Shown: positions 9,377 to 64,000 of the stretch, in pieces
Layout: each line of letters opens with the position of its first letter
Position numbering within the stretch: position 1 is the stretch's first letter
Source: Methanotrichaceae archaeon
GTDB taxonomy: Archaea; Halobacteriota; Methanosarcinia; Methanotrichales; Methanotrichaceae
DNA: 64,000 nucleotides
Reading direction: 5' to 3'
Assembly: GCA_963754945.1 (NCBI GenBank)
Contig: CAVWIG010000018.1
Span: 132,031-196,030 of the forward strand
Translations under genes and position numbers: made by a program
The notes under the pieces: model-generated
What the model was told of the DNA's origin: nothing
What the model saw: the letters and a program-made list of their open reading frames with translations, nothing else
The model's database searches: none

Positions 9377-9385
9377 GGCGGTGGC

Positions 9386-9991: not shown

Positions 9992-10065
9992 TTCTTAGCT
10001 ACAAACGCCTTATTTAGCCATCAATTCGGTTCCGCTACATTTCGAGATGAATCTATCAACGTTGG

Positions 10066-10956: not shown

Positions 10957-11044
10957 GTATCCACCTAAATTTCAGGTCCGGGTTCGGTCATAAGCCCGTC
11001 ACCAATCTGTGGTTAATATTTGAAGGAATTATTTGAAGGATTTC

Positions 11045-12942: not shown

Positions 12943-12950
12943 GCAGAAGC

Positions 12951-13100
12951 TTAGGCAGCCCTGCTCTCCTTGGACTTCATCCTCAGCCCATGATAGCCGC
13001 ACTTGCGGCAGCGAGTAGCCTTAACCGGGTTACGCGCATTACAGTGCATACAGATCTTCAAGTTCAAAATCCTGTTTTCAGCCTCTGGAAACCTAGCCAT
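12951..13100 (-). CDS. rpl40e: 50S ribosomal protein L40e
   Basis: [10 protein letters not shown]...[11 protein letters not shown]...CRKCG. Confidence 0.95.
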
Positions 13101-13342
13101 TATAATCGCCTCATAAATCATTCTTGGATTGCGGTTCTTGAATTGTAATTGGTTTTGATTCTGTCTCAATTCTCGAAATCGCCAAGATAGGTTGTCTGCT
13201 CTGATATTAAGCTTTCCAGCAGATTTTGAAAGGATGGCACGATCTCGATCGAGAGTTCGAGACCCTAAGAAGCCAGTATGACTTCTTCGTTAGGTGCTGC
13301 AGCTAATGCTATCCCGGGAAAAAAAGGCTTCCGGTGATCTCT

Positions 13343-28961: not shown

Positions 28962-30014
28962 TTATTCAGCTTCCTTTTTGCTTGGAGGTAGCAATCTCTT
29001 TACTTCCTGCTCGAACTCCCTTTCAGCCGATTCATCGTTCTCCTTAATTTGTCGTTGGCTAAAGACCTGATACTGCTCCAATGCACGATGCTTTGCGTCC
29101 TCCATAGAGATGTGCCCACTGTGCTCCAGTATTGCTCGCTGGTTGAATTGAAGGAATGCATTCAGTTTCTCGCGCCAGTCTTTCATATAGACTGGATTTC
29201 TACGGCTAGCCTGATCTTCGGCGTAATCCAACCACATGGTCACGAGGCGATTGAGATTGGTAATCTCTTCCTGCCGGAGGTAATTCTTGGCAACGACTAC
29301 ATCGGCCTGGTGGACACGAGCACCTTTCCAGCTAGTCAGACCCATATTGTTTTTGGATGCATCCGCTCTTTCGGCAATTAGTTCCGCGGCAGTACAGCCG
29401 CTGATGGCCCAATGAAGCTTATTCTGCACGATGCTGAAGAATTCCTTGGTGCTTTCGGCCCTTGGATCGTAATCCGCAGATAGAGTAAAGATATCGCGAA
29501 CCTTCTGATAAAAGCGCTTTTCTGAGGCCCGAATGTCACGAATGCGCTCTAAGAGTTCGTCGAAATAGTCTGCGCCGAGGGCTTTACCCTCTTTGAGCCG
29601 CTCGTCATCTAATGCGAATCCTTTAATCAGGTATTCGCTTAGGCGCTCAGTGGCCCACTTGCGGAATTGCATGCCTCGGTGGCTTCGAACCCGGTAGCCA
29701 ACAGCAAGGATCATGTCCAGGTTATAGAAATCTAACAGCCGCTCGACTTGGCGTCCGCCCTCGGTTTGAACTATTAGGAATTTCCTAATAGTTGCCTCTG
29801 GGTAAAGCTCGTGGTCGCCATATATAGTCGAGATATGCTCATTGATTGTAGGCACAGCTACCTGATATAATTCCGCCATAAGACGCTGATTCAGCCACAC
29901 AGTCCCATCATGTAAACGCACTTGTATGCGAGATGCGCCGTCCTCCATTTGGTAGAGGACAATGCTGGTGTCAGGTGCGGGAATGCCTCGTTGGCCGTTC
30001 ATGTTAGTCTCCAT
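28962..30014 (-). CDS. rhuM: RhuM-family (virulence RhuM) DNA-binding protein
   Basis: TVWLNQRLMAELY, YNLDMILAVGYRVRS, QFRKWAT, DYFDELLERIRDIRASEKRFYQK, VQNKLHWA. Confidence 0.9.
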   Translation of the reverse strand: METNMNGQRGIPAPDTSIVLYQMEDGASRIQVRLHDGTVWLNQRLMAELYQVAVPTINEHISTIYGDHELYPEATIRKFLIVQTEGGRQVERLLDFYNLDMILAVGYRVRSHRGMQFRKWATERLSEYLIKGFALDDERLKEGKALGADYFDELLERIRDIRASEKRFYQKVRDIFTLSADYDPRAESTKEFFSIVQNKLHWAISGCTAAELIAERADASKNNMGLTSWKGARVHQADVVVAKNYLRQEEITNLNRLVTMWLDYAEDQASRRNPVYMKDWREKLNAFLQFNQRAILEHSGHISMEDAKHRALEQYQVFSQRQIKENDESAEREFEQEVKRLLPPSKKEAE

Positions 30015-30466: not shown

Positions 30467-31165
30467 TTACACTTCCCTTTTGGCCCAGTGTTGTCTAAAC
30501 CGGATCATCGTTTTCTGGAGCGCAAGAATCGATTCACCAGCGAGGATATTAGCCTCGGTTAAAAGCCTACTATAGGTTTTATAGTGCATGTCTTTGGGTC
30601 TGGAAGTGACATAATGGCCATCTTCAAATCTTATGCTAAGCCTTCGATATATCTTTCCGGCTTTATGCGCTTGCCTCATATCTTTGGTTTTTCTCTGACT
30701 GCTGTAGGTTAAATTGTGGCAATGCCTACATAAAAAATATCCTTTCCGGAGATAGAGCTTGGCTACTCTTCTCCTACATCCTTCGCTTGGACAGATGAAC
30801 CAAGGTCGTTTTCCTCCATAATTGCACGTTGTCCAGGAAAGAGGTACTCTGCAGTTCACATTTTGTCTCTGTCCATTAATGGTTGTGGCGTATGACAGCT
30901 CAATGGTCTCTGGACTCGTTTCAATGCGGATATTACTTCCATCCCGCCAACTGCATATGCAGCTTCGGCAATTATCCAAGCCTCCCTTTTTGTTGAGAAA
31001 GCGAACATCGAGTTCTAGGTACTTTTCAACTAAGTGTTTGCTACTAAATCTGAGCCAGTTTCCAGATCCCAATCCACCCATATAAAACTCCGTTTTATCG
31101 AAATCATTAGGTAAATTCGAAATTTGACACAACTTCCGCAACAGCAGACCATGCTCAATTTCCAA
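30467..31165 (-). CDS. zinc-finger hypothetical protein of mobile elements
   Basis: YGGKRPWFICP...CRRRVAKLY...CRHCHNLTYSSQ, RPKDMHYKTY. Confidence 0.7.
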   Translation of the reverse strand: MEIEHGLLLRKLCQISNLPNDFDKTEFYMGGLGSGNWLRFSSKHLVEKYLELDVRFLNKKGGLDNCRSCICSWRDGSNIRIETSPETIELSYATTINGQRQNVNCRVPLSWTTCNYGGKRPWFICPSEGCRRRVAKLYLRKGYFLCRHCHNLTYSSQRKTKDMRQAHKAGKIYRRLSIRFEDGHYVTSRPKDMHYKTYSRLLTEANILAGESILALQKTMIRFRQHWAKREV

Positions 31166-31249
31166 ATTTGTCCATATTATCGATTGGCTTTCTTTAACTT
31201 TGCGTTCATGTTAAGCCTTGGCTGGGTTGCCTTAAACTAGAATGGCTTC

Positions 31250-34072
31250 TTAGCTGCTGGGTTCCTCTCGTTTAGGATATCCGCAGCCGGGTTGAGCGCA
31301 ATAGAATTGGCCGTTCTTCTGGCAGTATCCCTTCAAGATCTTTCCATCAACGACCAATTTATCGCCACACACAGAACATATCAAGGACCTTTCAGATTTG
31401 GGACAGTTTGTAGGCTTGATCCCTGAGTCATTCTCATGATCATGTGAACATGAATTTGCGGGTAGTGGGGATTTTCCATAATCGCTATCAATAGGACATT
31501 TTGCGGGTAGTGCGGGTAGTTGTTCTACCTCTATACACTTTATCAAATTGGACTGATTTTCACAAAGTGGCCGGCGTAGGGAACTACTACCCGCACTACC
31601 CGCAAATCGATCTACTGATTGTGATTCTTGATTTTCTGCACTACCCGCAACTTTCCAGAGGCTCACCTTGTTGTGGGAATCCTTCTCGCGACAAAGTTTC
31701 CGTCCAGAGGGATAGATCTGATCAACGTGCTTTCCAAGTATCACGCCTAGACTCAGGGATGCCTTGTGATCCTTGCGCACGGCTTCAGCGACATCATCCG
31801 GCATAGCATCCTGAAGAGTCTGGTAGACCTGCTCTTTTGATATCAGCTCGTCTCTCAGCTGTCCTGCGCTAATCAGATGATCGGCATGGATTGTTGCCCA
31901 TTCTCCTAAGAATGCGTCCCATTGTTGAACATCCTGGTCCATGGAGTCGTATAGCTCAGAGGCGTTCTCCAGGAAACCCTTTATGCCAGCAAACTCCAGG
32001 ATTCCGCTTAATAGATCAGACCATTCATTGAACCCACCTATTGCTTTGGCTGATCCGGCTGGTCTTTCCTGCCACGACCCATGCTCGGGCCATTATGAGC
32101 AGATCTGATAGCAGGCTAGCACGGTTCGCTCTGATCCATCCCAAGAGATCATCATGCTTGAATCCGCTCCGGAGCCACGGCCTGGCCATTGATGCATCCA
32201 TTCGAATCCAAAAGGATCGTCTAGCTAGATCGCCGCCTATCGAGATGTTATTTCCCGTGGCGGACCATACAGAGCGTTGAGGTAGATCTACCATTTCTGA
32301 TTTCCCAAGGAAGCGATCCCGCCAAGTCCTGGAAGTCAACGCCCTGGTCAAAGAGGAAGAACGCAGCTTCCCTACAACATTGTCTATAACAATTATTGGG
32401 CTGCCTTCGAGTAAGGTACTGGTTATTGCCTTCCTCCATTCATCCTCTGTATCAGGTGCGCCCATCATGTTGGCAGGTCTGCCCGTAGCGATCATGGCAA
32501 CAACTTCGGCCAAGAAGCTCGCGCCTGTCCCAGCTTGCGGTTTATCAAGTAGAGCCAACGGCACATTCCCATCAATCATGGGTCGAACTACTGGCGACAG
32601 CAGTAGTGCCAATGCATTAGCCCTAGAAGCTTCGTCTTTAAAGGGGAAATCTACCAAGATTTCATCAATAATGTGCTTAACCGCTTTTTTAGCATCATCA
32701 CTCGTGGGATTCGCAGGAACATTTAGGCCTTGAAGCTCTTTGCCTGGTTCATAGAACAGCGCAGTTGCCTCATCGTATCCCGGTACGATCAAAACTGTTC
32801 CATCAGGTCTGATCACAGGGGCTTCAATAACCGCCTCGATAATGAGAAAACCAGGCCATGTTCCCAGACCAAGGATGTCTCGGACCACGTCGAGCGGAGG
32901 GCGAGCTCTTGTGTACTTAGGTTCTCCCTTTTCGTCATTGCCTTCGAATGTCACAAACCCTGCTGCCCGAGCCAACAAGCCACGGAGGGCACTCTCACTT
33001 ACGGGCTCTATAACAAGGCGATCTTTCAGGACAAGCCGGACCAGGCTACCAGAACGGACAAATATTTTTGGTGGGCTGTTGTGCTCTTCCAACGCTTTCA
33101 GTGCATCTGCCGTTATATCCTGAAGATACCTGCCGTTGACCTGGATGTCCTTTGAGATCGAGATCTCAAATCCCATCTCCCTGGCTGCCTCAATAGTCTC
33201 CGCCAGTTTGCCGCTCATCTCAGGCACCCAGGCTTTGCATCCTCACAGTGGATGATGCCCTTAGTGACTGCAATCCATTCCAGTGGTCCACCACCGCTCT
33301 TATGCCTGAAACAATGCCAGCAATTCTTGGCGGTGTTGATTGCGAAGTTCTTCCCGGTGGTGGATCCATGCAGGGGATGAGATCCTCGAACCTCGGATCC
33401 TGCTCTTTCCTTGATATCCATGGGCCAAGCTACTTGATCAATCGGAATATGATCCCCGAGAGATGATCCACCGGAACTTCGCTTTTTCGTAGTCCTCTTC
33501 TGCTTTTCATCGCCGGTGATAACCTTCTTCAGAGGGCTCAAGATCGTCAACAGCTCCTCTTTTGAAATTACTGCGATTGGGATGTCTTTGATCACTTCGT
33601 ACCTGTTGCCGTTAGGATGAGTCGATCCAGGGCCGACGACCTGTTGCCCAATTGCCTGGACCTCCCCAAGATGCAGAGGATCACCCTCGGAGTCCTTCAA
33701 CTCCGGATCTTCCAGGATGATCTTATCCTTCAGGTCGTTGCAGATCAGATAGTAGTGAAGACCGCCTCGGCCCGTCTTAACTGTGAAGGTTGATGGAAGC
33801 TGGTCGATGATGCCCAACGCCTGCAACCTTGCGACATCGTCAACATCGAGAACCACGAGATCACCGATTCCGGTGAGCACTCCGTAATTATGGCCCTCTG
33901 CCAGATAGCCTGCCATAACTGCATGGCCGTAAGCATAATTTTTTCCGTTAGGACCGTTCCAGTCCTTGCCTATCGGGCTCTTATGGCCGTTTAGGATAAC
34001 CGCAAACCTGAAGGATGGCTCCTGGAGCCGAGCAGGTATCCTCTGCAGGGCTCTCTCAAAAGCTGAATCCAT
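31250..34072 (-). pseudogene. Prim-Pol + Zn-binding + P-loop helicase-like replication protein with two frameshifts (near 33220 and 32065)
   Basis: NYGVLTG..LVVLDVD, TGRGGLHYY, VVGPGSTHPNG; HPLHGS...WHCFRH; KPQAGTGAS, IVIDNV, ATGNN, DLARR; shifting frame gives GGFNEWSDLLSGILEFAG leading into ORF 31250-31942. Confidence 0.8.
31457..31649. repeat. six 10-bp iteron-like repeats, three facing three (candidate origin)
   Basis: TGCGGGTAGT at 31457, 31502, 31511; ACTACCCGCA at 31586, 31595, 31640. Confidence 0.8.
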
Positions 34073-53360: not shown

Positions 53361-56300
53361 ATGGCCGCTAACTTCGATGCTATCCCCGAGGAGCTTAAAG
53401 CCCTAAAGAATTGGTCGCTGTGGAAGAAGGGTGTACGCGACGGCAAGCCCGCGAAGGTTCCTATTCAATTGAATGGTAGAGGCGCAAAATCAAATGATTC
53501 TTCAACGTGGATAACTTTTGCTGCAGCCCTAAACGCTTATCAGAACCTAGACGGCTTTGATGGCATCTGTTGTATGATGCCTACAACACCGGATAGCCTC
53601 ATTTTCATTGACCTTGACTATTGCATTGACGATAAAGGGGTTATCGAGCCGTGGGCGGCGGATGTAGTTAAAAGGTTCAACTCTTATACTGAAAAGTCAC
53701 AGTCCGGGCATGGTCTCCACATCTTAATCAAAGGAAAGAAGCCTTTCAAGCGATGCCGTAAACATGGCAGCCCCTTTGAGATCTATGATTCCCTAAGACC
53801 CATGTATCTTACTGGTGCTGGTGACTTTCCCGATGTCCAGGCTAAAATAAATCCTCGTCAGGATGAGCTAGACAGTCTTTTCTTTGATATCTTTGGGAAT
53901 AATGAGCAGGAAAAGCCGGGGCCCGCAGATAAGCCCTCAGAAGGCCGCTATCTAGAAGATGAGGTTTTGCTCAAACGGGCTATGCTCGCAAAGAACGGAG
54001 CAGCCTTTAAGGACCTTTGGGACGGCTCCACGCTCGGGTACAGCGGCGACGATAGCGCCGCTGACATGGCCCTATGTAATCATCTGGCATTTTGGACAGG
54101 TAAGAGCGCCCTGCAGATGGACAGGCTATTTAGAAAGTCCAGGTTAATGCGTCCTAAGTGGGACGAAAATCGAGGAAGTCAGACTTACGGTGAAAAGACC
54201 ATCAATGAAGCTATTGTCGGCTGTACTCAAGTATATGAACCACCAACAGAACCCATACACGAAGAGCCGATTAAGGGAACCTGTGACATAGAAAGACTGA
54301 TAGCGGTTTATAAGAAATGGCTGTACGTCAAAGAGGATTACAGCATTACAGGGCCAATGGTCGCGGCTGTGGCTAACTTTTGCCCTGGCGATCCTGATAT
54401 TATAGGGATCATAGCCCCCTCTGGATCTACCAAGACCGAAGGCATCAGGGCTCTAGGAGAGGAAGAGAACAAGTTTGTTTATCCTCTATCATCATTGACT
54501 GAGCATACCTTCATCTCGGGGTTTGTGGACAAGAACGGCAAGCCCGGCCGAGATCTAGTACCTTTGCTGAAGCATCGACTTTTGGTTATAAAGGATCTGA
54601 CCACTATCCTATCTAAGAAAGAGGATGTAAGAGGCCAAATATTCGCAGACTTCCGAGAGCTGACAGACGGATACATTGAAAAGGAATTCGGCAACGGTAC
54701 AAAAAAATTGTATAAGGATATTCATAGCTCTATATTATTCGCTTGCACCAATGCAATAGAACGATACTATTCAATGTATTCTAATTTGGGCCAACGCATG
54801 ATTTTTATGAGGCCCGAGGGCGATAAGATCAAGGCCCGAGAGCAGAGCGTCAAAAATCGGAGCAGCCTTAAAGAAATGCGTGCAGATATCCACACGGCAA
54901 CCGTGCAGTTTTTAGAGCTGAATGTGGAGAAGACCAAAGCCGGATTGCCTACAACTTCGGACGCAATAGCTGAAGAGATGGGACCATTGTTTGACTTTCT
55001 GGCGGTTGCTAGAACTTCGATTCACCACGATTTTAAAGGTGACATAGACGAAATACCAGAACCCGAGTACCCAACCAGGATAGCCAACACATTAACGCGG
55101 CTGCTAGAAGTCCATGCCCTGATTCATGGAAGGGATGAAGTAGACCCAGAAGATGTAGCCTTTGGGATTAGGATCATCAGGGACAACGTACCAACGACAC
55201 GGTATAAACTGCTAGAGATATTGAGCAAAACACCAACAATCTATCTCACTACACCCAATATTGCCACCACAGCCGAATTGCCAACAGGCACAGCGAAGAG
55301 AGTCCTCGATGAAATGTTCGCCCTTCATCTGTTATAGGACTTACGCACTTGGCAGAATCTTCTTATATTGCATATGCTATATTAATACCAACAAATAAAT
55401 GGGATAGGGCTGAACTTGAATCCTTCCAAGTGCGATGATCTTGATTATATTCACTTTCTGATAGCATCAGTAGATGTTTTTACCTGTACTGAGGCTGCAA
55501 GGTGCCAGCCAGTAGGAGAAAATAGTCCATCGCATGATGCATTTACCCGTCTTCTACAAAGACAGCCTCCAGATACGGATACGTTGTGGAATGAGGTAAA
55601 GGATATTGTTCAGCCTCAAAATGGTTTCTTGGTTATTGACGATACGACGTTGGACAAGCCATATGCTAAAAATATGAGCCTAGTCTATCATCAATGGAGT
55701 GGAAAACAGCATCGATTGGTGAATGGAATCAATATTTGTACGTTGCTGTGGACAGATGGAAACGCTATAATTCCCGTTGATTTCCGAATCTACGATATAG
55801 ATGTCGACGGCAAGACAAAAAATGATCATTTTCGAGATATGCTTGCCAAAGCAAAAGAACGGCGTTTTCAGCCCTGTATTGTTCTCTTCGATAGCTGGTA
55901 TGCCAGTGTAGATAATCTCAAAACCATACGAAAGTCTGGATGGCACTGGCTGACCCGATTGAAGAAAAATAGGCTAGTGAATCCGAATAACACCAAAAAT
56001 ATGCAAATTCAGGAGATAGAGATACCGCTGCAAGGCAGGGAAGTGCATTTAAAAGCTTATGGTTTTATAAAAGTATTCCGGATAGTCTCTAATGACGGTG
56101 ACATAGGATACTGGGCAACTGACGTGCTGGAGATAGACGAAGCTAAACGCGAAAAATTTGGTGGATATTCCTGGAAGATTGAGGAATATCACAGAGGCAT
56201 AAAGCAATTCTGTGGAGTCGAAAGCTGTCAAGCAAGAAAAAGTCAGTCCCAGAGAGCACACATAATGTTCTCCCTGAGAGCGTTTCTCAGATTAGAAGTA

Positions 56301-56536
56301 GAAAGGCTTAGAATAGGAATAAGTTGGTTCGAATCTAAGCGAAGAATTATTCGCGAGTCAATTCGCGAATATATAAAATATCCTTATTATTCATTGTCGA
56401 AAGATTCAACTGCGTAAGTCCTATGTTAGATAAAATCAGCTACCAATCGAAGACGGAAGCTGACACAGACCGGCGCTCTGACTCTTATCAGATCAGAAAG
56501 GAAGTTTTAGCCCCGGTCCTAAAACTGAAAGTATAG
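53361..56536 (+). pseudogene. AEP-type primase (NrS-1/P4-like N-terminus) + AAA+ helicase-like + wHTH, interrupted near the 3' end by IS701
   Basis: IPEELKALKNW, FIDLD, YTEKSQSGHGLHI, DDSAADMALCNHLAFWTG, APSGSTKT, LVIKD; frame resumes at 56424 as LDKISYQ...LKV*. Confidence 0.85.
55335..56423 (+). mobile_element. IS701-family element (copy 2), transposase 55416-56417
   Basis: TIR TAGGACTTACGCA; TSD TGTTA; protein identical to copy 1. Confidence 0.92.
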
Positions 56537-56737: not shown

Positions 56738-56920
56738 ATGAGCAAAGGTAAAACGCATTGTAGAGGCTCCCGATGTAATATCGTCAGATCCAATATCAAC
56801 AACGCCAGACGCAAGGCTAGGAAGAAGGCGAAGATCTACGATTTGCACGATTATGATAAGCCGACTGGTAGTGAGCCTCTGGAGTCGAACCCGCGGAGGT
56901 CAAAACATGAAGAGCCTTAA
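56738..56920 (+). CDS. small basic hypothetical protein
   Basis: GAGG RBS; R/K-rich 60 aa; first gene of the coupled operon. Confidence 0.5.
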   Translation: MSKGKTHCRGSRCNIVRSNINNARRKARKKAKIYDLHDYDKPTGSEPLESNPRRSKHEEP

Positions 56921-57263
56921 GGACTTTGAGAGGCGGCTTGTCACTTTGTCGATCGGCTCACATGAGACCATCAGCGATGATAGCAAGGCATTTTTGGACA
57001 GTTTGACTTGGGCCGAGGAAGACCAAATGACCGAAATCTTCATCAAACACGCGCTTGCGGGCGATCAGCCTTATGAAAACCTGACCTCGGAAGAGGCTGA
57101 TTTTTTGATAACCTTGCTCGAGCGTCCAGTTAAGCCAGTGCCACCAAATGTTCGAATAAAAGAGGCAATCGATCGAGAAAGAGCGATAGACGAATGTTTT
57201 GCAAATATGCCTCGGGACAGCGGGGGTAACCGGATCGCATGCGGAGGCGGTCAGGATGTCTGA
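56907..57263 (+). CDS. small protein with degenerate N-terminal coiled-coil tag (FERRLVTLS)
   Basis: GGAGGT RBS, ATG at 56907. Confidence 0.65.
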   Translation: MKSLKDFERRLVTLSIGSHETISDDSKAFLDSLTWAEEDQMTEIFIKHALAGDQPYENLTSEEADFLITLLERPVKPVPPNVRIKEAIDRERAIDECFANMPRDSGGNRIACGGGQDV

Positions 57264-57381
57264 AGTACAAATCGCAAGGCGAAGAGTTCGAACCCTACAG
57301 AAGAAACCCTACTCGAAGGAAAACTACGACGGCTCCGAGGGGGCCGGGGATCAACCTGAATTCAAAAAGCGCTGGCGGTGA
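57256..57381 (+). CDS. microprotein with degenerate tag (RRVRTLQ)
   Basis: ATG overlapping the upstream stop; GGAGG upstream. Confidence 0.4.
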   Translation: MSEVQIARRRVRTLQKKPYSKENYDGSEGAGDQPEFKKRWR

Positions 57382-57384
57382 ACC

Positions 57385-57621
57385 ATGCCCGAAAAGAAGC
57401 GATATCTGCGACTTAAATTGAATAATCCAGAGGATGCACAAGAGTACATCCGTCGGCTGCTGAGGAATCTGAAAGAACGCGGTCCGGATGCTGAAATTGA
57501 ATATCTGGGTAGGATTAGCCAAATATTATCAGTCTGGTTGAAATCTTATGAATTGAATAAATTAGAGGATATCGAGGCCAGGCTTGCGGCCTTGGAGAAA
57601 GAGAAGGAGACCAAGAAATGA
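57385..57621 (+). CDS. small helical protein with C-terminal IEARLAALE coiled coil
   Basis: 78 aa, amphipathic helices; ATGA overlap with the next gene. Confidence 0.75.
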   Translation: MPEKKRYLRLKLNNPEDAQEYIRRLLRNLKERGPDAEIEYLGRISQILSVWLKSYELNKLEDIEARLAALEKEKETKK

Positions 57622-57887
57622 GAACCCAAAACTTGCAGAAACGTGTTGAGGCACTTGAGGCCACGCAAAGCCGCGTTCCCGTCGATCAATGGCCCCCGAG
57701 GGATTGCAATCCGAACAGGCGTCTTGCGAGATATGCCTCCTACTTCGATGACACAAAGCCATGGAAATGCACCGGGACACCGGAAAGAAGGGCTGAAAGA
57801 GATGCTAGATTCGCCCGAGACGCAAGGCTGGCCCGCTACCAAGATTATTTTGAAGACCAAGAGACCAGCGTCGCTGTCTCGGAGTGA
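57618..57887 (+). CDS. tagged microprotein (MRTQNLQKRVEALE...)
   Basis: AGGAG RBS, ATGA coupling, shared N-terminal motif. Confidence 0.75.
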   Translation: MRTQNLQKRVEALEATQSRVPVDQWPPRDCNPNRRLARYASYFDDTKPWKCTGTPERRAERDARFARDARLARYQDYFEDQETSVAVSE

Positions 57888-57889
57888 CA

Positions 57890-58072
57890 ATGAAAGCAGA
57901 TAACCTTTCCCGGCGACTCTCGGCACTGGAAGACGACCCAGAGGAGGATTTGGTCGCGTTTAGCTACCAGTGGCTAAACGAGGATGGCACACCCGCCGGA
58001 CCATTGATCGAGCGCCGGATCCCTCGTAGTCGTTATGAGATGTTCAATTTTGAATGGATTGATGAGAAATGA
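57890..58072 (+). CDS. tagged microprotein (MKADNLSRRLSALE...)
   Basis: GGAG RBS; alternative GTG start at 57884; shared motif. Confidence 0.75.
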   Translation: MKADNLSRRLSALEDDPEEDLVAFSYQWLNEDGTPAGPLIERRIPRSRYEMFNFEWIDEK

Positions 58073-58236
58073 AAACAGATTCCCTGAACAGCCGCCTGGA
58101 CGTCCTGGAAAAGCAAGCTAACCCCGTAAATATCAGGCTTATTTGGTACGACGATCCCGATTATGGAAAACAACCTGAGCCGGGCAATACCCGTATCAAC
58201 CTGCATTTCTTAGACGAACTGGAAGGAGTTTTATGA
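58069..58236 (+). CDS. tagged microprotein (MKTDSLNSRLDVLE..., 55 aa, not in ORF track)
   Basis: ATGA overlaps at both ends; shared motif. Confidence 0.75.
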   Translation: MKTDSLNSRLDVLEKQANPVNIRLIWYDDPDYGKQPEPGNTRINLHFLDELEGVL

Positions 58237-58475
58237 GCGTAAATGCACTCAACCGCCGCGTAGCAGCGCTAGAAAATAGTGCCCCTATTATTGATGATCT
58301 TGCTGATTACGCCCTCTGGCGTGCCCATGGCTGCGATCCGAACGTCCGATGGGACCCGGCATTTAAAGAGATGCTAGAGAAGGCGTTTGCGGAAATGAAG
58401 GAAAGACGTGAGCATCTGCTTAAGAAGACGGACAATGCCCGGGTCGATGTCAATGTCAATGGACGCGGTTCCTGA
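58233..58475 (+). CDS. tagged microprotein (MSVNALNRRVAALE...)
   Basis: AGGAG RBS, ATGA coupling, shared motif. Confidence 0.75.
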   Translation: MSVNALNRRVAALENSAPIIDDLADYALWRAHGCDPNVRWDPAFKEMLEKAFAEMKERREHLLKKTDNARVDVNVNGRGS

Positions 58476-59145
58476 TTGTATATTTCCAGCATCAAACATC
58501 GAAGGAGTTGCCGATCTCCTCGTAGACAGGCAAGGGGATTTCTTTGATTATCCTCTGGCCTGGGGATCTGTTCGCCGAACTGGAGATTTTCGGGGCAGAA
58601 CTATCCACTTCTACACGGACGATTATCGCTTTGCAGCGGTCTGGAATAAGCCCGATCGAGTGTGGCAAAGTGGTGCTCCTAGCTTTGTTGAGGTCAATTT
58701 CAGCACAAGTAACGCTCAACCTCGTTGGAGAGCTTTGGAGCAGATAGGCAAAAAGCGGTTCTTGTCAAGGTATTGGCAAGAGCGTGGAATGCTATGCTGG
58801 GTCGATCTCAACGTCGCTCCGAAATGGTGGGACATCAATCTTCTGGGCGTTCCTTTGGGCTGGAAAGCCTATGCGACCAGGATCGAGAAGAGCAGTTCGC
58901 TTCAAAGCATAATGGATCAGGCTTCTTTAGCAGAATCGCAAGCAGGAACAGATGAAATCAAGTTCGTAATCTATGGTCACCGGCAGGAGATGGAAGATCT
59001 CTGTCGGAGACGCGGCTGGATCTACGTCGACGAGCAAGCAACGATCTGGAATAAACGAGAATCAAACAAGGCAAGGAAAGTGTCGTTGCAATTAGAAGTT
59101 GAGCATTTTGAACAAACAAAACAACTGACTTTGGAGATGATATAA
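58408..59145 (+). CDS. DUF4417-like phage-associated protein (start uncertain)
   Basis: IHFYTDDYRFAAVWNKP, NFS, RYWQERG motifs. Confidence 0.65.
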   Translation: MSICLRRRTMPGSMSMSMDAVPDCIFPASNIEGVADLLVDRQGDFFDYPLAWGSVRRTGDFRGRTIHFYTDDYRFAAVWNKPDRVWQSGAPSFVEVNFSTSNAQPRWRALEQIGKKRFLSRYWQERGMLCWVDLNVAPKWWDINLLGVPLGWKAYATRIEKSSSLQSIMDQASLAESQAGTDEIKFVIYGHRQEMEDLCRRRGWIYVDEQATIWNKRESNKARKVSLQLEVEHFEQTKQLTLEMI

Positions 59146-59340
59146 ATGGGCGGTGACAAGGGCGGGACCCGCCCGGGTCGTAAGAACGAAATTGGAACAT
59201 CTGGATTTCAGGGCGGACCCGACGTACACGGTGGGACCTTAGGTCGAGATCAGACACCGAAACAGCCTAAAGTTCTTCTTAAAAACGGCAAAGTGCAACC
59301 TGGCACAAAAGCGTTTAGGTTGCAACAAACGAAAACGTAG
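59146..59340 (+). CDS. small Gly/Lys-rich protein
   Basis: Begins immediately after the upstream stop, GGAG RBS, MGG start. Confidence 0.5.
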   Translation: MGGDKGGTRPGRKNEIGTSGFQGGPDVHGGTLGRDQTPKQPKVLLKNGKVQPGTKAFRLQQTKT

Positions 59341-59422
59341 CATTGTTTGCTCTAGTTAGTTGGTATTTTACGGGTTAGTGATTCATGCTAACCCCCATTT
59401 TCTATATTATATATCTTGGGGT

Positions 59423-59563
59423 ATGAAGATGACAAATTTGTATGATAAGCGCATACAGGGCCTGAAGGCCCTAAAGAACCAATTGCAACTAACCGCAAAA
59501 CTGATTGACAGGCTTATCGACCTGGAGACGCGCATCCAGGAGCTCGAAAAAACAAAGAAGTGA
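59423..59563 (+). CDS. coiled-coil microprotein with two RhxxhE motifs, coupled to the tape-measure-like gene
   Basis: DRLIDLETRIQELEKTKK; GTGA overlap at 59560. Confidence 0.6.
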   Translation: MKMTNLYDKRIQGLKALKNQLQLTAKLIDRLIDLETRIQELEKTKK

Positions 59564-62361
59564 TTTTTGTGAGTGCTATCAGGGATTTCGTCATCCGTAC
59601 GCTTCTTCAAGGAAATGATGAAGCGAAAGATGGGATTCAAGAAACTTTGGATCTAGCTCAGCGACTTACAGAAAATGCATACGATGTTGTGGTTGATGCC
59701 GACACGAGTGGCGTCGATGCCCTGGTCGAATCTGTTGATCAACTAGGAGAATCCGAACAGGAAGCCAGCTCTCTCACGGAGTACCTGACAAGTGCACTGG
59801 AAAGCGTCCAATCGGTGGCAGAGGGTGTTTCAGAAAAAGTAGGAGACATGGTCGAGTCGATATCAGCCGCTAAGCTTGCTGCTGGAGCTGCTGTGGCCCT
59901 GGGAGCAGACCAGGTCTTCAAGATGCAGGAGACTAAAGATGCTCTCACTGAACATTTCAGCACGACCCTTACGGAGGCTCAATCTGATGGCGTGAACAAG
60001 TGGCTCGGGAATCGACCGCCAGAAGTATCGTTCACTCAGCGAGCCAAGGCTTACTTGGATCTGACGTTCCACAAGATAGGATCAGATCAGGCCATGGAAG
60101 CCACTAAAGCCGTTGAAGAGTTCGTGTTTCCAAGAACTGCTGAGTTAGGAGAACAGGGAGTAGACACATCAAGCATCATCGAGACCCTTTCCGGGTGGAC
60201 TCAACAGCAAGGCGGTCGCCAGGCCATGTCCAAGAACAACCTGGCTTCGATGGGCAATGCCGGTCGAGTTCTAGCTAGGATGGGGATCGATTCGCCAACG
60301 GATCAAGACATGGCAGCTTCTCGGGCTCATCTAGAAACCACAGGAGAACTTACAGGAAAGACGAAACAACAGGCAGACGCAGCAATCTTGCTCGGAGCAG
60401 TGCTACATCAGTTACAAAGTCAGTACAAAGCAGTCGATTATTCACAGTTAGACGCGTCTCAGCAGATGGAGATATTCAATGCTGACATGAGCGACATGAC
60501 TCAACAGATCGAGACTGGTGCTCTGCCATACCTGTTGATGCTAGTAGACATGATACACAATCTAGTTGACGTTGTAGAGTCCGTCCCTGGCCTTCCTCAA
60601 GTCTTAGGCATGATAACTGTCTTCACAATCTTAATGACCGTTCTTGGGCCTCTGATGGGTGTCTTGGGGCCAGTAATCGGATTGTTCACGGGTGCGGCTG
60701 AAGCCGTTGGGATGGTCAGTATAGCCGTTGCAGAAGGCACAACTGTAATTGATGCTCTGGTTGGCGTACTAATCGGTGTAGTTGGCTGGCCTCTCCTGAT
60801 CGTAGCTGGTCTAGTCGCCCTTGGAGTAGGCCTGTATGAGGTTGAACAGAAAACCCATGCCTTCTCAAACGCCTGGGCCGCCTTCAGCCAATCGAGCATT
60901 GGCAAAGATCTCATCAACGACGTGCAGATGCTTGTAGGGCTGCTAAGCGGCGGAGCAGCCGATCTGGGCGGTCATTTCCTCCAAGGAGCTGTCCAGGGAG
61001 TAACCGTTTTCGAAGAGGTCATTGGTGGTGCCTTCGAGAAGGCCGACGGACTCTACAAGTTCCTGAAGGCCCATGATGCGCTCGACGTGGTGCTGGGATT
61101 TGCCATAGGAGGGCCTATAGGAGCGCTGATAACTGGCATTCCTGCGATCGAGGCTCACCTGGACCCGATTGACTCTTTCACCAAGCTGATCTACTACCTG
61201 ATCCGGGAACTTCTGACAGCAGATACTGACTTTGTGACCTGGATCAAAGGGGTCTGGAGTGACGTTGTGAACGCGGTTCTGGGCATTGCGAAACCTATAA
61301 CTGACGAGCTTGAACGGCTAGGGAATTGGTTCCAGGGAAAAGGATATCAGACAAACGCGGAACTTGCCAAATCGCAGTCTGCTGGAGGCACAACGCCCGC
61401 GTTGAACCTGGATACAACGCAGATGCCGCCTGGATATAAAACAGCGCCTGGCGAAGGTGATCAGCTTATACTCGTTGGGCCAGATGGCAAATCAATCGGA
61501 GCAGCTACATATAATCATCTGCCAGACAATCAAAACCCTGACTTGATGAAACAAGCATGGGATGATTATTATAAGAACCACCCAGATGCAAAAAAACCAG
61601 ACACTCCAACGCCATCAACACCTGCCCCAAGAAATGTTCTCAGTGATGCGCGCGCTGGTTTAAGCCAGGGGGTTAACAACGAACTCCAAAATCAGGAACA
61701 ACAATTCAATGCGTGGGACAAAAACCAAGTCGGCCCAGCGTCGGCATCGGTCGATCAGGGTCCGGTTGCACTATTTAAATATGGATACTCGGCTGCAATG
61801 GGGCTAATCGACAATCTCAAAGGAACCCCAACACCAACACCAACACCAACAACCGATACAACACCATCTTCTCCAACTCCCTCATCGCCAACTCCAATAA
61901 CACAGTACAAGAGCAAGATCGATGGACACATCATAGATAAAAATACATACGACAACTATCTTGTGCCTGACCAGCAGCTCAATTATGTTCCTGCTCAAAA
62001 AGGCGGCCTAATCACAAGTTCCGGAGGGCTGATTGGTCACGAAGGAGAGCCTATCATCCCCGCCGAGATTGCAAGTTCGTCCAGGCTCCAGGAAATCTTA
62101 GAGTCCTTGATCGATTCTCCTGTGGCCGTTATGCCGCCAAAAGAAAGCTACTCGGGTGGAACTGCTCAGCCTGTAGTCTTCAATCTCGGTGGGATAAGCG
62201 TACCAGTGACCATCAACGGCAGCACTGACAAGCTAGATGAAGACTCTATTATCCAAAAGATTAAGGATGTACTGGAAACCAGGTTCAACGATTTCGAGAT
62301 GTCGCGTCTCATCGAGGAAGTCGTAAAAAGAGGAAGCGCACACTATGGGGGCGGTAGTTGA
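59560..62361 (+). CDS. phage tail tape-measure-like protein
   Basis: 933 aa; Ala/Gly-rich amphipathic helices, long central hydrophobic stretch, C-terminal AQKGGLITSSGGLIGHEGEPIIP and VVFNLGGISVPVTING. Confidence 0.7.
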   Translation: MIFVSAIRDFVIRTLLQGNDEAKDGIQETLDLAQRLTENAYDVVVDADTSGVDALVESVDQLGESEQEASSLTEYLTSALESVQSVAEGVSEKVGDMVESISAAKLAAGAAVALGADQVFKMQETKDALTEHFSTTLTEAQSDGVNKWLGNRPPEVSFTQRAKAYLDLTFHKIGSDQAMEATKAVEEFVFPRTAELGEQGVDTSSIIETLSGWTQQQGGRQAMSKNNLASMGNAGRVLARMGIDSPTDQDMAASRAHLETTGELTGKTKQQADAAILLGAVLHQLQSQYKAVDYSQLDASQQMEIFNADMSDMTQQIETGALPYLLMLVDMIHNLVDVVESVPGLPQVLGMITVFTILMTVLGPLMGVLGPVIGLFTGAAEAVGMVSIAVAEGTTVIDALVGVLIGVVGWPLLIVAGLVALGVGLYEVEQKTHAFSNAWAAFSQSSIGKDLINDVQMLVGLLSGGAADLGGHFLQGAVQGVTVFEEVIGGAFEKADGLYKFLKAHDALDVVLGFAIGGPIGALITGIPAIEAHLDPIDSFTKLIYYLIRELLTADTDFVTWIKGVWSDVVNAVLGIAKPITDELERLGNWFQGKGYQTNAELAKSQSAGGTTPALNLDTTQMPPGYKTAPGEGDQLILVGPDGKSIGAATYNHLPDNQNPDLMKQAWDDYYKNHPDAKKPDTPTPSTPAPRNVLSDARAGLSQGVNNELQNQEQQFNAWDKNQVGPASASVDQGPVALFKYGYSAAMGLIDNLKGTPTPTPTPTTDTTPSSPTPSSPTPITQYKSKIDGHIIDKNTYDNYLVPDQQLNYVPAQKGGLITSSGGLIGHEGEPIIPAEIASSSRLQEILESLIDSPVAVMPPKESYSGGTAQPVVFNLGGISVPVTINGSTDKLDEDSIIQKIKDVLETRFNDFEMSRLIEEVVKRGSAHYGGGS

Positions 62362-62424: not shown

Positions 62425-63084
62425 ATCGACTTTATATTTTATCTCTGTATATTAATAATTTCTAAAAAGCCCTAGAATAGGCTATCTTCCGGCATGATGG
62501 ACCATAAGACAAGGTGCTCAAGACCGAGAGGCGTGCGGCCCTGAGACATTCGAAGCAAAGGGCTATAATTTTGAAAGACAGATCTACTTTGTTTTCATTT
62601 TTTGAGCTGATCAGCAGTTTGCTATTTGATCTACCGCCTCCATTCCATATGTCGAGGGACGGGGATGGCCGAACCGTGCCCTGGAAATAGGCGAAGGGAG
62701 ACTAGTGTCGCGTCAATATTGAAGTGTCACGAAGTAATTCGCCACAGAGATGCAAGAGTCAAACTATCTTGGCTTTATCCGACACTAGATAGCTGACGCG
62801 ACACTAGGAAGAACTGATGGCGTGATGGCAGATAGATTGGTGTGTCCCTTCGCTTGAAACCGCCCAATTGTTCTCAGACGTATTTAGGATGAGTGGCTTA
62901 GGAGATAATATGACTGGTACTTACAAAATAGATCGACGGATATCTGAAGACGAAGGGATTAGGATGCCAGAGGGACCAGATGGTTAAGTCCTTATTGGAG
63001 GTTGGTATCCCTTCGCTTGAGCTATTCTAATTATACCTCAAAGTTGGTATCCATTTCTCGGGGCGGAATGCATCAACAACCAGG

Positions 63085-63354
63085 TTAAGCCGGTCCTGCG
63101 GGACTCTTTTCGTCGGCTGGTACGGCCACGAGAGTCTCTATATCCATCCGGTCCGCCCTTTTTAAGGCCATATTCATCGCTACTTTTTCATTGGGGGCTT
63201 CAAATAGCACGACGGTATCGTACCTTCCGAGCGTCCAGTAGATGCCCAGGTATCGAACCTGTCCTTTCGTGTCGTCTTCTATATCCTTCAGGTTCTCAGC
63301 AATAACTTCCTTGCTCAGCTTTTTCTTGAACTTAGCCAATGCAATGAAAAGCAT
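63085..63354 (-). CDS. GYD-domain protein
   Basis: YWTLGRYDTVVLFEAP...ETLVA. Confidence 0.85.
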   Translation of the reverse strand: MLFIALAKFKKKLSKEVIAENLKDIEDDTKGQVRYLGIYWTLGRYDTVVLFEAPNEKVAMNMALKRADRMDIETLVAVPADEKSPAGPA

Positions 63355-63419
63355 TACGCATTCACCTCATCCCTTTTTCAGGGCATTCTAACATACGAAA
63401 AGGAGCTATTTAAAAATAC

Positions 63420-63600
63420 CTTATCGTATCCTCTTGATATAGGCAAACAATGGCGGTAAGATGGAGCGAAGCAGATTGAGGGCACGCACGGGGATGAGAT
63501 ATGCATTACTGAACCCTATTCTTGAGGAGCTGGCCAGGGAAGGCAGAATAAGGATTACTGCAGACAAGGACGGGGATTAGTATCCCTAATAGGTCAGTAG
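63420..63600 (+). pseudogene. degenerate winged-helix domain remnant
   Basis: YRILLI*ANNGGKMERSRLRARTGMRYALLNPILEELAREGRIRI with an internal stop. Confidence 0.4.
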
Positions 63601-63735
63601 GGCGCAGGATACTCCTTTCGTATCTTTCTAGTTTTTTTTGTACAAAGATTTTTCATAATGCAAGACTGTTGTTTTCGGTGGAGGGATGAAAATGCCGTAT
63701 GGATTATTCAATAAAAAATCTTCGCACACCTCTTG

Positions 63736-64000
63736 GAGGGTTTCGATTTAGTGTTGGTTAATGAAGCCTTAAATTCTTGCGTTAATATTTTCAATCTTTA
63801 TAGTGGTTTTTTAGCATATTTCACCCCTAAATTGGCTTATTAGATTTCAATTTACCTTGTTGTTTCTAATTTTTGCGCTTTTTTAGAGAGCTTCCGCTAG
63901 GCTGTTTGTTTATGCACTAAATATTTCAACTGTTCCAGGTTGTAAACGACCGAATTCATCATGAATTTTACTCCAGCTCTTGCGACAGTTGTTACATAAA
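63736..64000 (-). mobile_element. IS5 copy, 3' end (runs off the window)
   Basis: Matches 21297-21560. Confidence 0.9.

What the first reader, a model, noticed from the sequence alone, without database searches (positions are those of the whole stretch)
56907..59563. Coupled array of microproteins sharing an N-terminal RhxxLE coiled-coil tag on unrelated C-termini
Seen: four consecutive coupled ORFs start in exact register with MxxxxLxxRhxxLE (MRTQNLQKRVEALE, MKADNLSRRLSALE, MKTDSLNSRLDVLE, MSVNALNRRVAALE) and then show no similarity to each other. One of them (58069-58236) is missing from the ORF track. Two upstream ORFs have degenerate tags (RRLVTLS, RRVRTLQ). Two other ORFs carry the motif at the C-terminus (57385: IEARLAALEKEKETKK; 59423: RLIDLETRIQELEKTKK). 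The DNA of the tags differs, so this is not a recent tandem duplication. Established: R-h-x-x-h-E is a trimerisation motif of short coiled coils. Inference: a modular plug-in system in which variable payload peptides dock through the shared tag onto a C-tagged scaffold, for example to interfere with a helper virus, steer DNA packaging, or load cargo with the tape-measure-like protein. I do not know a described system like this in archaea.
Basis: partly seen in the sequence, partly recalled or inferred. Interest (0 to 1): 0.88.

Follow-up and report, generated by a model that had tools for sequence, protein, structure and literature searches.

The report
Shared coiled-coil tag on archaeal microproteins
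A run of tiny overlapping genes in an archaeal mobile element all begin with the same 14-residue helix, the same arrangement recurs in many related elements next to a stripped-down DNA-packaging protein that ends with that helix, and it probably lets the small proteins assemble together, though this is not yet shown.

Summary
D, E, F and G (57618-58475) start in register with M-x4-L-x2-R-h-x2-L-E. In the whole 2.97-Mb genome this motif sits at 9 of 103,816 usable start positions, and 7 of the 9 lie in this array and a second copy on another contig. In 26 of 30 metagenome loci fetched through protein E, and next to the C gene in other genomes of the host family, there are tandem, overlapping tagged ORFs. 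Their C-terminal parts fall into at least 8 families with no detectable mutual similarity, except E~F and A~H4. All synonymous codons are used at the conserved residues, so selection acts on the protein. The tag is the published R-h-x-x-h-E trimerisation motif. The 78-aa protein C ends in the same motif. It belongs to a family of 648 database clusters found only in the host family. Its relatives sit directly upstream of the large terminase in tailed viruses, and one is fused to a recognised small-terminase domain. The arrays always follow a replication module, and no capsid genes were found. Best reading: a shared coiled-coil assembly helix on accessory subunits of a headless small-terminase-like hub in satellite- or plasmid-like elements. 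Binding itself is untested.

The parts
53361..55337 (+). Primase-polymerase/helicase gene of the element, cut at its 3' end by an insertion sequence
   Evidence: Pfam NrS-1 polymerase HBD 1.2e-31; PHROG DNA primase 2.6e-79. The ORF ends at the IS boundary. Relatives are 884-1066 aa against 658 aa here.
55335..56423 (+). Insertion sequence (DDE transposase); not part of the system
   Evidence: Pfam DDE_5 and DDE_Tnp_1. More than 20 near-identical copies in the genome.
56907..57263 (+). A: 118-aa protein with a degenerate N-terminal tag (ends L-S instead of L-E); member of the helical H4 family
   Evidence: hhalign A against H4 probability 88.6%. Alignment A5. dN/dS 0.46 against the C8 copy.
57256..57381 (+). 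B: 41-aa ORF with a degenerate tag (R-V-x-x-L-Q), overlapping A by 8 nt
   Evidence: 93% identical to the C8 copy, dN/dS 0.49. No relatives were sought.
57385..57621 (+). C: 78-aa helical-hairpin protein ending in the tag motif (K-L-x-D-I-E-x-R-L-x-A-L-E-K); small-terminase-like hub candidate
   Evidence: Family of 648 clusters. The C-terminal motif residues are nearly invariant. AF2 gives helix 15-32 plus a long helix 34-77, pLDDT 81. Relatives lie upstream of TerL. A relative fused to a TerS domain is P0260. dN/dS 0.13.
57618..57887 (+). D: 89-aa tagged microprotein (family with repeated A-R-Y-x-x-Y-F motif)
   Evidence: 19 members. dN/dS 0.26. Not found in 60 related genomes.
57890..58072 (+). 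E: 60-aa tagged microprotein; N-terminal helix plus beta-hairpin
   Evidence: 16 database proteins at 67-100% identity. AF2 gives helix 3-14 (pLDDT about 60) and strands 21-26 and 40-45 (pLDDT 80-88).
58069..58236 (+). F: 55-aa tagged microprotein, paralogue of E
58233..58475 (+). G: 80-aa tagged microprotein (family with T-L-A-D-Y/F-x-x-W motif)
   Evidence: 21 members. The C8 orthologue is frameshifted just after the tag.
58459..59145 (+). H: DUF4417 nuclease (start uncertain, 58435-58459), shared with tailed viruses
   Evidence: Pfam DUF4417 1.1e-14; PHROG nuclease 6e-25. 63-66% identical homologues in viral contigs, one lying 1.2 kb upstream of the C-like gene and TerL.
59146..59340 (+). 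I: 64-aa Gly-rich basic protein following the nuclease
   Evidence: Gly-rich proteins follow the nuclease in viral loci L009 and L013.
59423..59563 (+). J: 46-aa helical protein ending in a C-like tag (R-I-x-x-L-E-K-T-K-K), overlapping K by 4 nt
   Evidence: Its C8 counterpart lacks the C-terminal motif.
59560..62361 (+). K: 933-aa tape-measure-like protein; context only
   Evidence: PHROG tail length tape measure protein 4.8e-10. 67% identical copy on C8. Absent from the other array loci examined.

Best explanation
The array is a conserved, translationally coupled operon of microproteins. They belong to at least eight families with no detectable similarity in their C-terminal parts.

Each protein begins at its first residue with the same two-heptad amphipathic helix. 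The consensus is M-K-x-D-S-L-x-[RK]-R-[LIV]-x-x-L-E. Its core is the R-h-x-x-h-E motif, which specifies short parallel three-stranded coiled coils.

The operon directly follows a 78-aa helical-hairpin protein (C). C is a 'headless' relative of viral small terminases, and its last helix carries the same motif.

The module belongs to primase/helicase- or polymerase-encoding integrated elements of one methanogen family. No capsid genes were found in the loci examined, so the elements look like satellites or plasmids.

The most likely mechanism is that the shared helix is an assembly module. The C-terminal helix of C and the N-terminal helices of the microproteins would pack into short parallel coiled coils. 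That geometry puts the body of C at one end and the small payload domains at the other. The small domains (beta-hairpin, zinc ribbon, helical) would then act as accessory subunits of a small-terminase-like hub that serves the element's DNA packaging or its exploitation of a helper virus.

Shown: the motif, its register, protein-level selection, the families, the gene order and coupling, the link with C, and the terminase link of C.

Inferred: helix-helix assembly, hub docking, and the packaging role.
For: Motif and clustering.

Recurrence: 26 of 30 loci fetched with E carry tagged ORFs, most with 3-8 in tandem with overlapping stops and starts.

Tag conservation: the consensus was built from 88 distinct tags. 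M is 8 residues before R in 77 of 88. L is at +4 in 88 of 88 although the search pattern allowed L/I/V/M. E is at +5 in 84 of 88 although four residues were allowed. All six Arg codons and all six Leu codons are used.

Unrelated C-terminal parts: 34 of 36 family pairs have hhalign probability of 3.3% or less. None of 110 distinct tagged proteins reaches a Pfam cut-off.

Structure of E: AF2 gives an N-terminal helix 3-14 separate from a confident beta-hairpin.

Motif function: the motif is a published determinant of parallel trimers (PMC3653964, passages read).

The C family: there are 648 clusters. It occurs in 30 of 105 genomes of the order. In a phylum-wide sample it was found in 0 of 388 genomes outside the host family. 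Its C-terminal motif is nearly invariant.

Link between C and the tags: where C ends in the motif, the next ORF begins with it in 28 of 39 loci, against 1 of 8 where C lacks it.

Terminase link: C-like genes overlap the start of TerL in 3 related viral contigs. P0260 joins a TerS domain (phrog_309, 5.2e-16) to a C-like domain (E 4.8e-11).

Element context: the arrays follow three different replication modules, and Pfam found no capsid, portal or terminase among the 52 of 84 ORFs of 95 aa or more that I submitted from 7 long loci.

Coding status: the two genomic copies evolve under purifying selection, dN/dS 0.13-0.54.
Against: - No assembly or binding has been shown by any method here.
- Two heptads is very short for a stable coiled coil.
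- C itself matches no terminase profile. No member of 52 hits a small-terminase PHROG, and no Pfam family is hit.
- The fold of C is a generic helical hairpin with no specific structural match.
- The synteny with TerL rests on one viral clade.
- The association between C and the tags is among related loci and could reflect shared descent.
- In 11 of 39 loci the ORF after a motif-bearing C has no clear tag.
- Both copies in this genome have an IS-disrupted replication gene, so this particular element may be inactive.
- No integrase or helper virus was identified.
Confidence: 0.45

Rival explanations
1. Each microprotein simply forms its own homo-oligomer (most likely a homotrimer) through the N-terminal motif. 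There is no common hub. C shares the motif only because it too self-associates.
For: The motif specifies homotrimers in the model peptides described in PMC3653964. Every tag carries both the Arg and the Glu of the inter-helix salt bridge, so self-pairing is satisfied. Small terminases are homo-oligomers; this point is recalled and comes from no call here.
Against: Non-core positions (K2, D4, S5, R/K8) are also conserved across unrelated families and in the last helix of C. That fits a common partner or mixed assembly better. Tight translational coupling of C with the array and the co-occurrence point the same way.
Confidence: 0.25
2. The genes are old tandem duplicates. The tag is just the slowest-evolving remnant of a common ancestor, with no shared partner or special role.
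For: E/F and A/H4 are demonstrable paralogue pairs. Fused E-F forms exist (L038), which shows recombination inside the array.
Against: The C-terminal parts differ in predicted or evident fold class. E has a beta-hairpin, another family has four Cys in a zinc-ribbon pattern, and H4 is helical by sequence pattern. 34 of 36 family pairs show no profile similarity. The same motif sits at the opposite end of C.
Confidence: 0.1
3. The tag is a decoy of the small terminase's C-terminal helix. The tagged proteins bind a helper virus's large terminase, or its small terminase, to block or redirect packaging, as satellite interference proteins do.
For: The tag equals the last helix of a small-terminase-like protein. 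Satellites are thought to use small-terminase homologues to redirect packaging (PMC9618062, passages read). A virus-type nuclease lies beside the array.
Against: The viral C-like proteins found here (L009, L083, L084) do not carry the R-h-x-x-h-E motif at their C-terminus. No helper virus was identified. That the C-terminus of a small terminase binds the large terminase is recalled, not tested here.
Confidence: 0.08
4. The tag is a virion-targeting propeptide, like the capsid targeting sequence of the phage T4 internal proteins. It would load the small proteins into helper capsids.
For: T4 internal proteins need only their first 10 residues for incorporation into the head (PMC9026906, passages read). 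Here too a short N-terminal peptide is shared by otherwise different small proteins.
Against: No capsid, scaffold or prohead protease gene was found in the window or in the 7 long loci. The same motif sits at the C-terminus of C. The motif is a textbook coiled-coil determinant.
Confidence: 0.06
5. The conservation reflects a nucleotide-level signal at the start of each coupled gene (re-initiation signal, RNA structure or recombination site), not a peptide.
For: Every tag starts at an overlapping stop-start junction.
Against: All six Arg and all six Leu codons and both Glu codons are used at the invariant positions. The tags in the window share only 19-28 of 45 nt.
Confidence: 0.01

Closest known systems
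Short parallel trimeric coiled coils with the R-h-x-x-h-E trimerisation motif (coronin-1, ccbeta, GCN4 and cortexillin variants; PMC3653964, passages read)
   Same: The residue pattern is exact: Arg(g)-[LIVM](a)-x-x-L(d)-Glu(e). The helix is very short. The paper calls an R-LDALE version a strong trimer determinant in short coiled coils.
   Different: Here the motif is a fixed N-terminal tag starting at residue 1. It sits on at least 8 families of 50-120-aa proteins encoded in tandem, and at the C-terminus of a partner protein. The oligomeric state is untested.
Phage T4 internal proteins with an N-terminal capsid targeting sequence (PMC9026906, passages read)
   Same: A short shared N-terminal peptide on otherwise different small proteins of a virus-related element.
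   Different: The T4 peptide targets the prohead core and is cleaved off. The elements here have no capsid or protease genes, and the tag is a coiled-coil motif also present at the end of protein C.
Satellite-encoded small terminase homologues (PICI, SaPI and marine VEIME elements; PMC9618062, passages read)
   Same: The element has a primase/helicase, a small-terminase-like gene, a packaging-associated nuclease, and no capsid genes found. The paper lists just these gene types in phage satellites.
   Different: The host is an archaeon. C lacks the DNA-binding N-terminal domain and matches no terminase profile. The tagged microprotein array has no counterpart that I know of in described satellites (recalled, plus the searches). 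Helper dependence is unknown.
Putative archaeal virus satellites (bioRxiv 10.64898/2026.08.12.739948, passages read; it cites plasmid-derived satellites of haloarchaea and nanohaloarchaea)
   Same: Small archaeal elements with a helicase-primase and a nuclease, proposed to depend on head-tailed viruses.
   Different: The passages read mention no small-terminase-like gene and no tagged microproteins. The host lineages differ.

Membership tests
R-h-x-x-h-E trimerisation-motif coiled coil | Arg at g, I/L/V/M at a, L/I/V at d, Glu at e (PMC3653964) | tested here: met
   D, E, F and G in the window. Among 88 distinct tags, position +1 is L58/I13/V12/M5, position +4 is L in 88 of 88, and position +5 is E in 84 of 88.
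R-h-x-x-h-E trimerisation-motif coiled coil | The segment is alpha-helical with a heptad pattern | tested here: met
   AF2 model of E has helix 3-14 at low confidence, pLDDT about 60. Hydrophobic residues fall at positions 3, 6, 10 and 13.
R-h-x-x-h-E trimerisation-motif coiled coil | [quoted passage not shown] | not testable with these tools
   This needs AUC, SEC-MALS or a structure. [quoted passage not shown]
Terminase small subunit (for protein C) | Gene lies directly upstream of the large terminase in a tailed virus | tested here: inconclusive
   Met for C-like genes in L009, L083 and L084, which are one viral clade. Not met for C in the window, which has no large terminase.
Terminase small subunit (for protein C) | Matches a small-terminase sequence profile | tested here: not met
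   No member of 52 hits a small-terminase PHROG at E up to 1. No Pfam hit. However, relative P0260 carries a TerS domain (phrog_309, 5.2e-16) fused N-terminally to its C-like domain.
Terminase small subunit (for protein C) | N-terminal DNA-binding helix-turn-helix domain | tested here: not met
   The AF2 model has only two helices after a disordered basic tail.
Terminase small subunit (for protein C) | Ring-shaped homo-oligomer that binds the large terminase | not testable with these tools
Phage/virus satellite (PICI-like) | Own replication gene (primase/helicase) but no capsid, portal or large terminase | tested here: met
   Window. Seven long loci: Pfam on 52 of 84 ORFs of 95 aa or more gave replication genes only. 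PHROGs was not run on those loci.
Phage/virus satellite (PICI-like) | Integrase and attachment sites | tested here: inconclusive
   No integrase family was found among the ORFs at 43.7-53.2 kb. The ends of the element are obscured by insertion sequences.
Phage/virus satellite (PICI-like) | Induced and packaged by a helper virus | not testable with these tools
   No helper was identified. The array was not found in the viral contig collection.
T4-type capsid-targeted internal proteins | Encoded by a virus with a prohead core and protease that removes the propeptide | tested here: not met
   No capsid, scaffold or protease genes in the window or the related loci.
Leader-peptide arrays (RiPP or bacteriocin precursors) | Neighbouring modification enzyme or export and processing genes | tested here: not met
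   None among the Pfam hits of the window or the 7 long loci. The definition of the family is recalled.

The most novel reading that the evidence does not exclude
This would be a split, modular small terminase. A headless oligomerisation core (C) recruits interchangeable microprotein subunits through a two-heptad R-h-x-x-h-E coiled-coil tag. The subunits include a zinc ribbon, a beta-hairpin and helical domains. Archaeal virus satellites of Methanotrichaceae would use this complex to recognise their own DNA and capture a helper virus's packaging motor. Tag-based plug-in assembly of a packaging complex has, to my knowledge, not been described in any domain. My knowledge here is recall plus the literature searches, which found nothing like it.
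Probability: 0.15. Interest if true: 0.85.

Novelty: new variant of a known kind. Interest (0 to 1): 0.66.

Why it matters
The module is common. There are 648 database clusters of protein C, and it occurs in about 3 in 10 sampled genomes of a globally important acetoclastic methanogen family. It is entirely unannotated.

If the tags do mediate assembly, this is a compact natural example of a docking tag reused on many unrelated microproteins. It would also give a handle on how capsid-less archaeal elements deal with tailed viruses, a field with very few cases.

The claim is directly testable with peptides and co-expression.

Tried and rejected
- **Complex prediction:** Complex prediction on C plus E (alignments A2 and A1) returned 'no answer', score 0.00, and no controls were run. 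It counts neither for nor against binding.
- **Sequencing runs:** The look-up of sequencing runs listed no RNA holder. Eight DNA runs hold small shares, at most 0.21. I did not lay reads. This says nothing about expression.
- **Fold searches with the C model:** Foldseek against the PDB gave no hit at E <= 0.001. The VIA wide search gave only generic helical hairpins, best Z 7.0, and no small terminase was listed.
- **PDB sequence search:** the C profile gave only coiled-coil noise, best E 0.19.
- **Annotated phages:** tblastn of C and of the viral C-like protein gave no match.
- **ESM Atlas with D:** only unnamed clusters at 0.88.
- **Protein D in related genomes:** not found, apart from one E 0.009 match with an internal stop.
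- **Viral contig collection:** no array relative with A1 and none with A2.
- **Tailed-virus loci:** tagged proteins have no significant tblastn match in the 17 tailed-virus or nuclease loci; the best E was 0.014.
- **Nucleotide-level signal:** rejected.
- **Tag-less versions of the H4 domain:** I looked for them as proof of modularity. Of 77 relatives, 53 have the motif Arg at residue 9 and 62 have it at residues 7-11. The rest are mostly longer or cut gene calls, so no clear tag-less form was found.
- **Literature:** searches for a prior description found none (and passages of PMC4158269). Supplements were not opened.


Full report
**What is in the window**

Between 56907 and 59563 there is a chain of co-directional small ORFs:
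- A, 118 aa
- B, 41 aa
- C, 78 aa
- D, 89 aa
- E, 60 aa
- F, 55 aa
- G, 80 aa
- H, a DUF4417 nuclease
- I, 64 aa
- J, 46 aa
- K, a 933-aa tape-measure-like protein

Successive gaps are -8, +3, -4, +2, -4, -4, -17, 0, +82 and -4 nt. So A to I, and J to K, are translationally coupled.

D, E, F and G each begin M-x4-L-x2-R-[VL]-x2-L-E. A and B have degenerate versions. C and J end in R-h-x-x-L-E-K.

Upstream lie a primase-polymerase/helicase (Pfam NrS-1 HBD 1.2e-31, PHROG primase 2.6e-79) and a 1089-bp insertion sequence at 55335-56423. The IS has more than 20 copies in the genome and cuts the end of the replication gene. The window ends at a contig end inside another high-copy repeat.

**Is it more than chance?**

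In the whole 2.97-Mb assembly the strict motif occurs at 9 of 103,816 start positions that have at least 30 aa before the stop. Four are here, three are in a second copy of the element on contig C8, and two are strays. A looser pattern gives 44 ORFs genome-wide, 8 of them in the two arrays.

The C8 copy shares 82-87% DNA identity over the array and nuclease. dN/dS between the copies is 0.13-0.54 for A, B, C, D, E, H, I and K. F is too diverged to estimate. These values are as expected for coding genes under purifying selection.

**The pattern recurs elsewhere**

Protein E has 16 database relatives, counting its own two copies. An E/F alignment retrieved 30 metagenome loci. Of these, 26 carry tagged ORFs on the E strand, usually 3-8 in tandem with overlapping stops and starts. 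The four without tags are weak partial matches.

I collected 121 tagged ORFs and dropped two singletons (a frameshifted G copy and one internal-start artefact). That left 119 ORFs and 110 distinct proteins.

From 88 distinct tag DNA sequences the consensus is M-K-[A/T/L]-D-[S/N]-L-x-[R/K]-R-[L/I/V]-x-x-L-E:
- M lies exactly 8 residues before the Arg in 77 of 88.
- The register is canonical in 93 of 119.
- L at +4 is 88 of 88, although my pattern allowed L/I/V/M.
- E at +5 is 84 of 88, although four residues were allowed.
- All six Arg codons, all six Leu codons and both Glu codons are used at these positions.

In the window the tags share only 19-28 of 45 nt. So the constraint is on the peptide, not on the DNA or RNA.

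**What follows the tag**

With the tag removed, BLAST groups the C-terminal parts as follows:
- E plus F, 49 members
- G-like, 21 members
- D-like, 19 members
- a helical family I call H4, 14 members
- a four-cysteine zinc-ribbon family, 9 members
- three small groups

Profile-profile comparison of nine family alignments gave two related pairs: E-F (probability 53.5%, E 1.3e-4) and H4-A (88.6%, E 2.7e-6). The other 34 of 36 pairs scored 3.3% or less.

None of the 110 proteins reaches a Pfam cut-off. The zinc-ribbon family comes close to DUF7158 (25.8 bits against a cut-off of 27).

AF2 on the E alignment gives helix 3-14 at pLDDT about 60, a linker, and a beta-hairpin (strands 21-26 and 40-45) at pLDDT 80-88. 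The tag is thus a separate element that does not pack on its own domain.

The family order is broadly conserved across loci: H4, D, sometimes the zinc ribbon, then E, F, G. This looks like a conserved multi-subunit operon more than a cassette array of free payloads.

Database relatives of H4 almost always carry the tag. Of 77 proteins, 53 have the motif Arg at residue 9 and 62 have it at residues 7-11. Most of the rest are longer or truncated gene calls.

**The motif itself**

**Protein C is the constant partner**

- C-like genes were found in about 20 of the E-derived loci by tblastn.
- A 13-row alignment found 648 database clusters, all unnamed. One homologue is labelled by NCBI as from a Methanotrichaceae archaeon.
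- In whole genomes the family is present in 30 of 105 genomes of the order, all of one family.
- In an even sample of the phylum it occurs in 2 of 12 genomes of that family and 0 of 388 from other families.
- The last helix of C is nearly invariant: D62, I63, E64, R66, L67, L70, E71.
- That helix reads K-L-x-D-I-E-x-R-L-x-A-L-E-K. This is the same unit as the N-terminal tag, including the Lys seven residues before the Arg.
- AF2 gives helix 15-32 and one long helix 34-77 (pLDDT 81).

Across all loci held, a C gene ending in R-h-x-x-h-E is followed within 40 nt by an ORF with the motif at residues 7-17 in 28 of 39 cases. For C-like genes without the motif the figure is 1 of 8. Five loci were skipped because they were broken or had less than 300 nt downstream. 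The loci are related, so this is descriptive and not a test.

A parallel coiled coil between a C-terminal helix and N-terminal helices would place the body of C and the payload domains at opposite ends. This is my inference.

**What C is related to**

In viral contig L009 a 99-aa C-like gene (tblastn against C, E 5e-9) overlaps the start of a large terminase (phrog_2, 1.6e-31). The large terminase is followed by portal, minor head, scaffold and major head genes. Two further contigs of the same viral clade show the same arrangement.

A profile search of 1.84 billion representatives found 138 relatives. One of them, P0260 (178 aa), has the C-like domain at residues 110-178 (E 4.8e-11). Its N-terminal part matches small-terminase PHROGs: phrog_309 at 5.2e-16, phrog_4044 at 5.4e-10 and phrog_4102 at 2.3e-6.

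C therefore looks like the C-terminal, presumably oligomerising, module of a small terminase that has lost the DNA-binding head.

Several results weigh against filing C as a small terminase:
- C and 51 relatives hit no small-terminase PHROG.
- There is no Pfam hit.
- Fold searches return only generic helical hairpins.

The DUF4417 nuclease H has 63-66% identical homologues in tailed-virus contigs. In L009 it lies 1.2 kb upstream of the C-like gene.

**The kind of element**

In seven long loci the C gene and array follow a replication module. Three different types occur:
- NrS-1-like primase-polymerase or PrimPol with a DUF3987 helicase
- D5_N/DUF5906 helicase alone
- that helicase together with a family A DNA polymerase

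Downstream there is heterogeneous cargo such as TPR/NB-ARC proteins, an Eco57I/MmeI-type restriction-modification gene, ParE and a Schlafen-like gene.

Pfam found no capsid, portal or terminase among the 52 of 84 ORFs of 95 aa or more that I submitted. The ORFs I left out were mostly antisense overlaps or under about 130 aa. PHROGs was not run on them.

The array was not found in the viral contig collection. No integrase was recognised near the window's element.

The gene set is a primase/helicase, a small-terminase-like gene and a packaging-type nuclease, with no capsid genes found. It matches what PMC9618062 lists for phage satellites, whose small terminases are thought to redirect helper packaging (passages). 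Putative archaeal satellites have been proposed (bioRxiv 10.64898/2026.08.12.739948, passages). Helper dependence is not shown here.

Both copies in this genome have IS-disrupted replication genes and may be inactive.

**Conclusion**

The most probable reading (0.45) is a shared coiled-coil assembly helix. It would join unrelated microprotein subunits with each other and with a headless small-terminase-like hub, in satellite- or plasmid-like elements of Methanotrichaceae.

The rivals are:
- independent homotrimers with no hub (0.25)
- relic of duplication (0.10)
- terminase decoys (0.08)
- capsid targeting as in T4, whose internal proteins need only their first 10 residues (PMC9026906, passages) (0.06)
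- a nucleotide-level signal (0.01, contradicted)

Nothing like this arrangement turned up in my literature searches (passages of PMC4158269). Supplements were not read.

Noticed in passing
window 55335-56423: A 1089-bp insertion sequence with a DDE transposase, present in more than 20 near-identical copies in the genome. It is inserted at the 3' end of the element's primase-helicase gene.
   Followed up: partly
window 63736-64000 (contig end): The end of another repeat, present in more than 40 copies at 99-100% identity across the assembly. It also ends contig C8 and creates a false 20-residue N-terminus on the 459-aa ORF there.
   Followed up: partly
L001 (own genome, contig C8:36000-52555), minus strand 9231-14792: A second copy of the whole A-K module at 82-87% DNA identity, with a different, also IS-truncated, replication gene upstream. 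Its G orthologue is frameshifted immediately after the tag (49-aa and 95-aa ORFs). The N-terminal third of K and protein J have diverged beyond DNA matching.
   Followed up: partly
window 63058-63714: The flank with a GYD-domain gene (63085-63354, minus strand) is 96.7% identical to the flank of the C8 copy. That is more similar than the elements themselves (82-87%), which suggests a repeated target region or recent homogenisation.
   Followed up: no
window about 30467-34072, minus strand: Remains of another PrimPol-type replication gene. Its parts are 69-75% identical in protein to part of the L037 replication protein and 39% identical to the N-terminus of the L026 one. It is split over several ORFs and lies beside a RhuM-family gene (28962-30014) and an IS66 transposase (26882-28198). 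No C-like gene was detected there.
   Followed up: partly
own genome, contigs C22:12905-13458 and C31:45573-45800 (minus strands): Further C-like genes. The one on C22 is followed directly by a tagged 104-aa ORF of the H4 kind. The one on C31 lies downstream of primase fragments with no tagged ORF seen.
   Followed up: partly
protein P0205 (113 aa, one contig of 1948 bases): A C-like N-terminal part (residues 1-64) runs straight into the C-terminal domain of an H4 protein. The two tags are merged into one helix. This could be a natural fusion or an assembly artefact.
   Followed up: no
L038:204-443 and L037:9001-9186: Single ORFs that combine the front of an E protein with the end of an F protein. 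This is consistent with recombination between the paralogues.
   Followed up: no
window 59341-59422: The only real intergenic gap in the module (82 nt, AT-rich). It lies upstream of J and K and suggests a separate promoter for the J-K pair.
   Followed up: no
L031:5081, L037:7310, L043:7405, L052, L053: A further tagged family directly after C. It has Tyr instead of Leu three residues before the Arg and Pro at residue 6 (M-S-R-Y-S-P-Y-x-R-R-L-Q-x-L-E). My first pattern missed it.
   Followed up: partly
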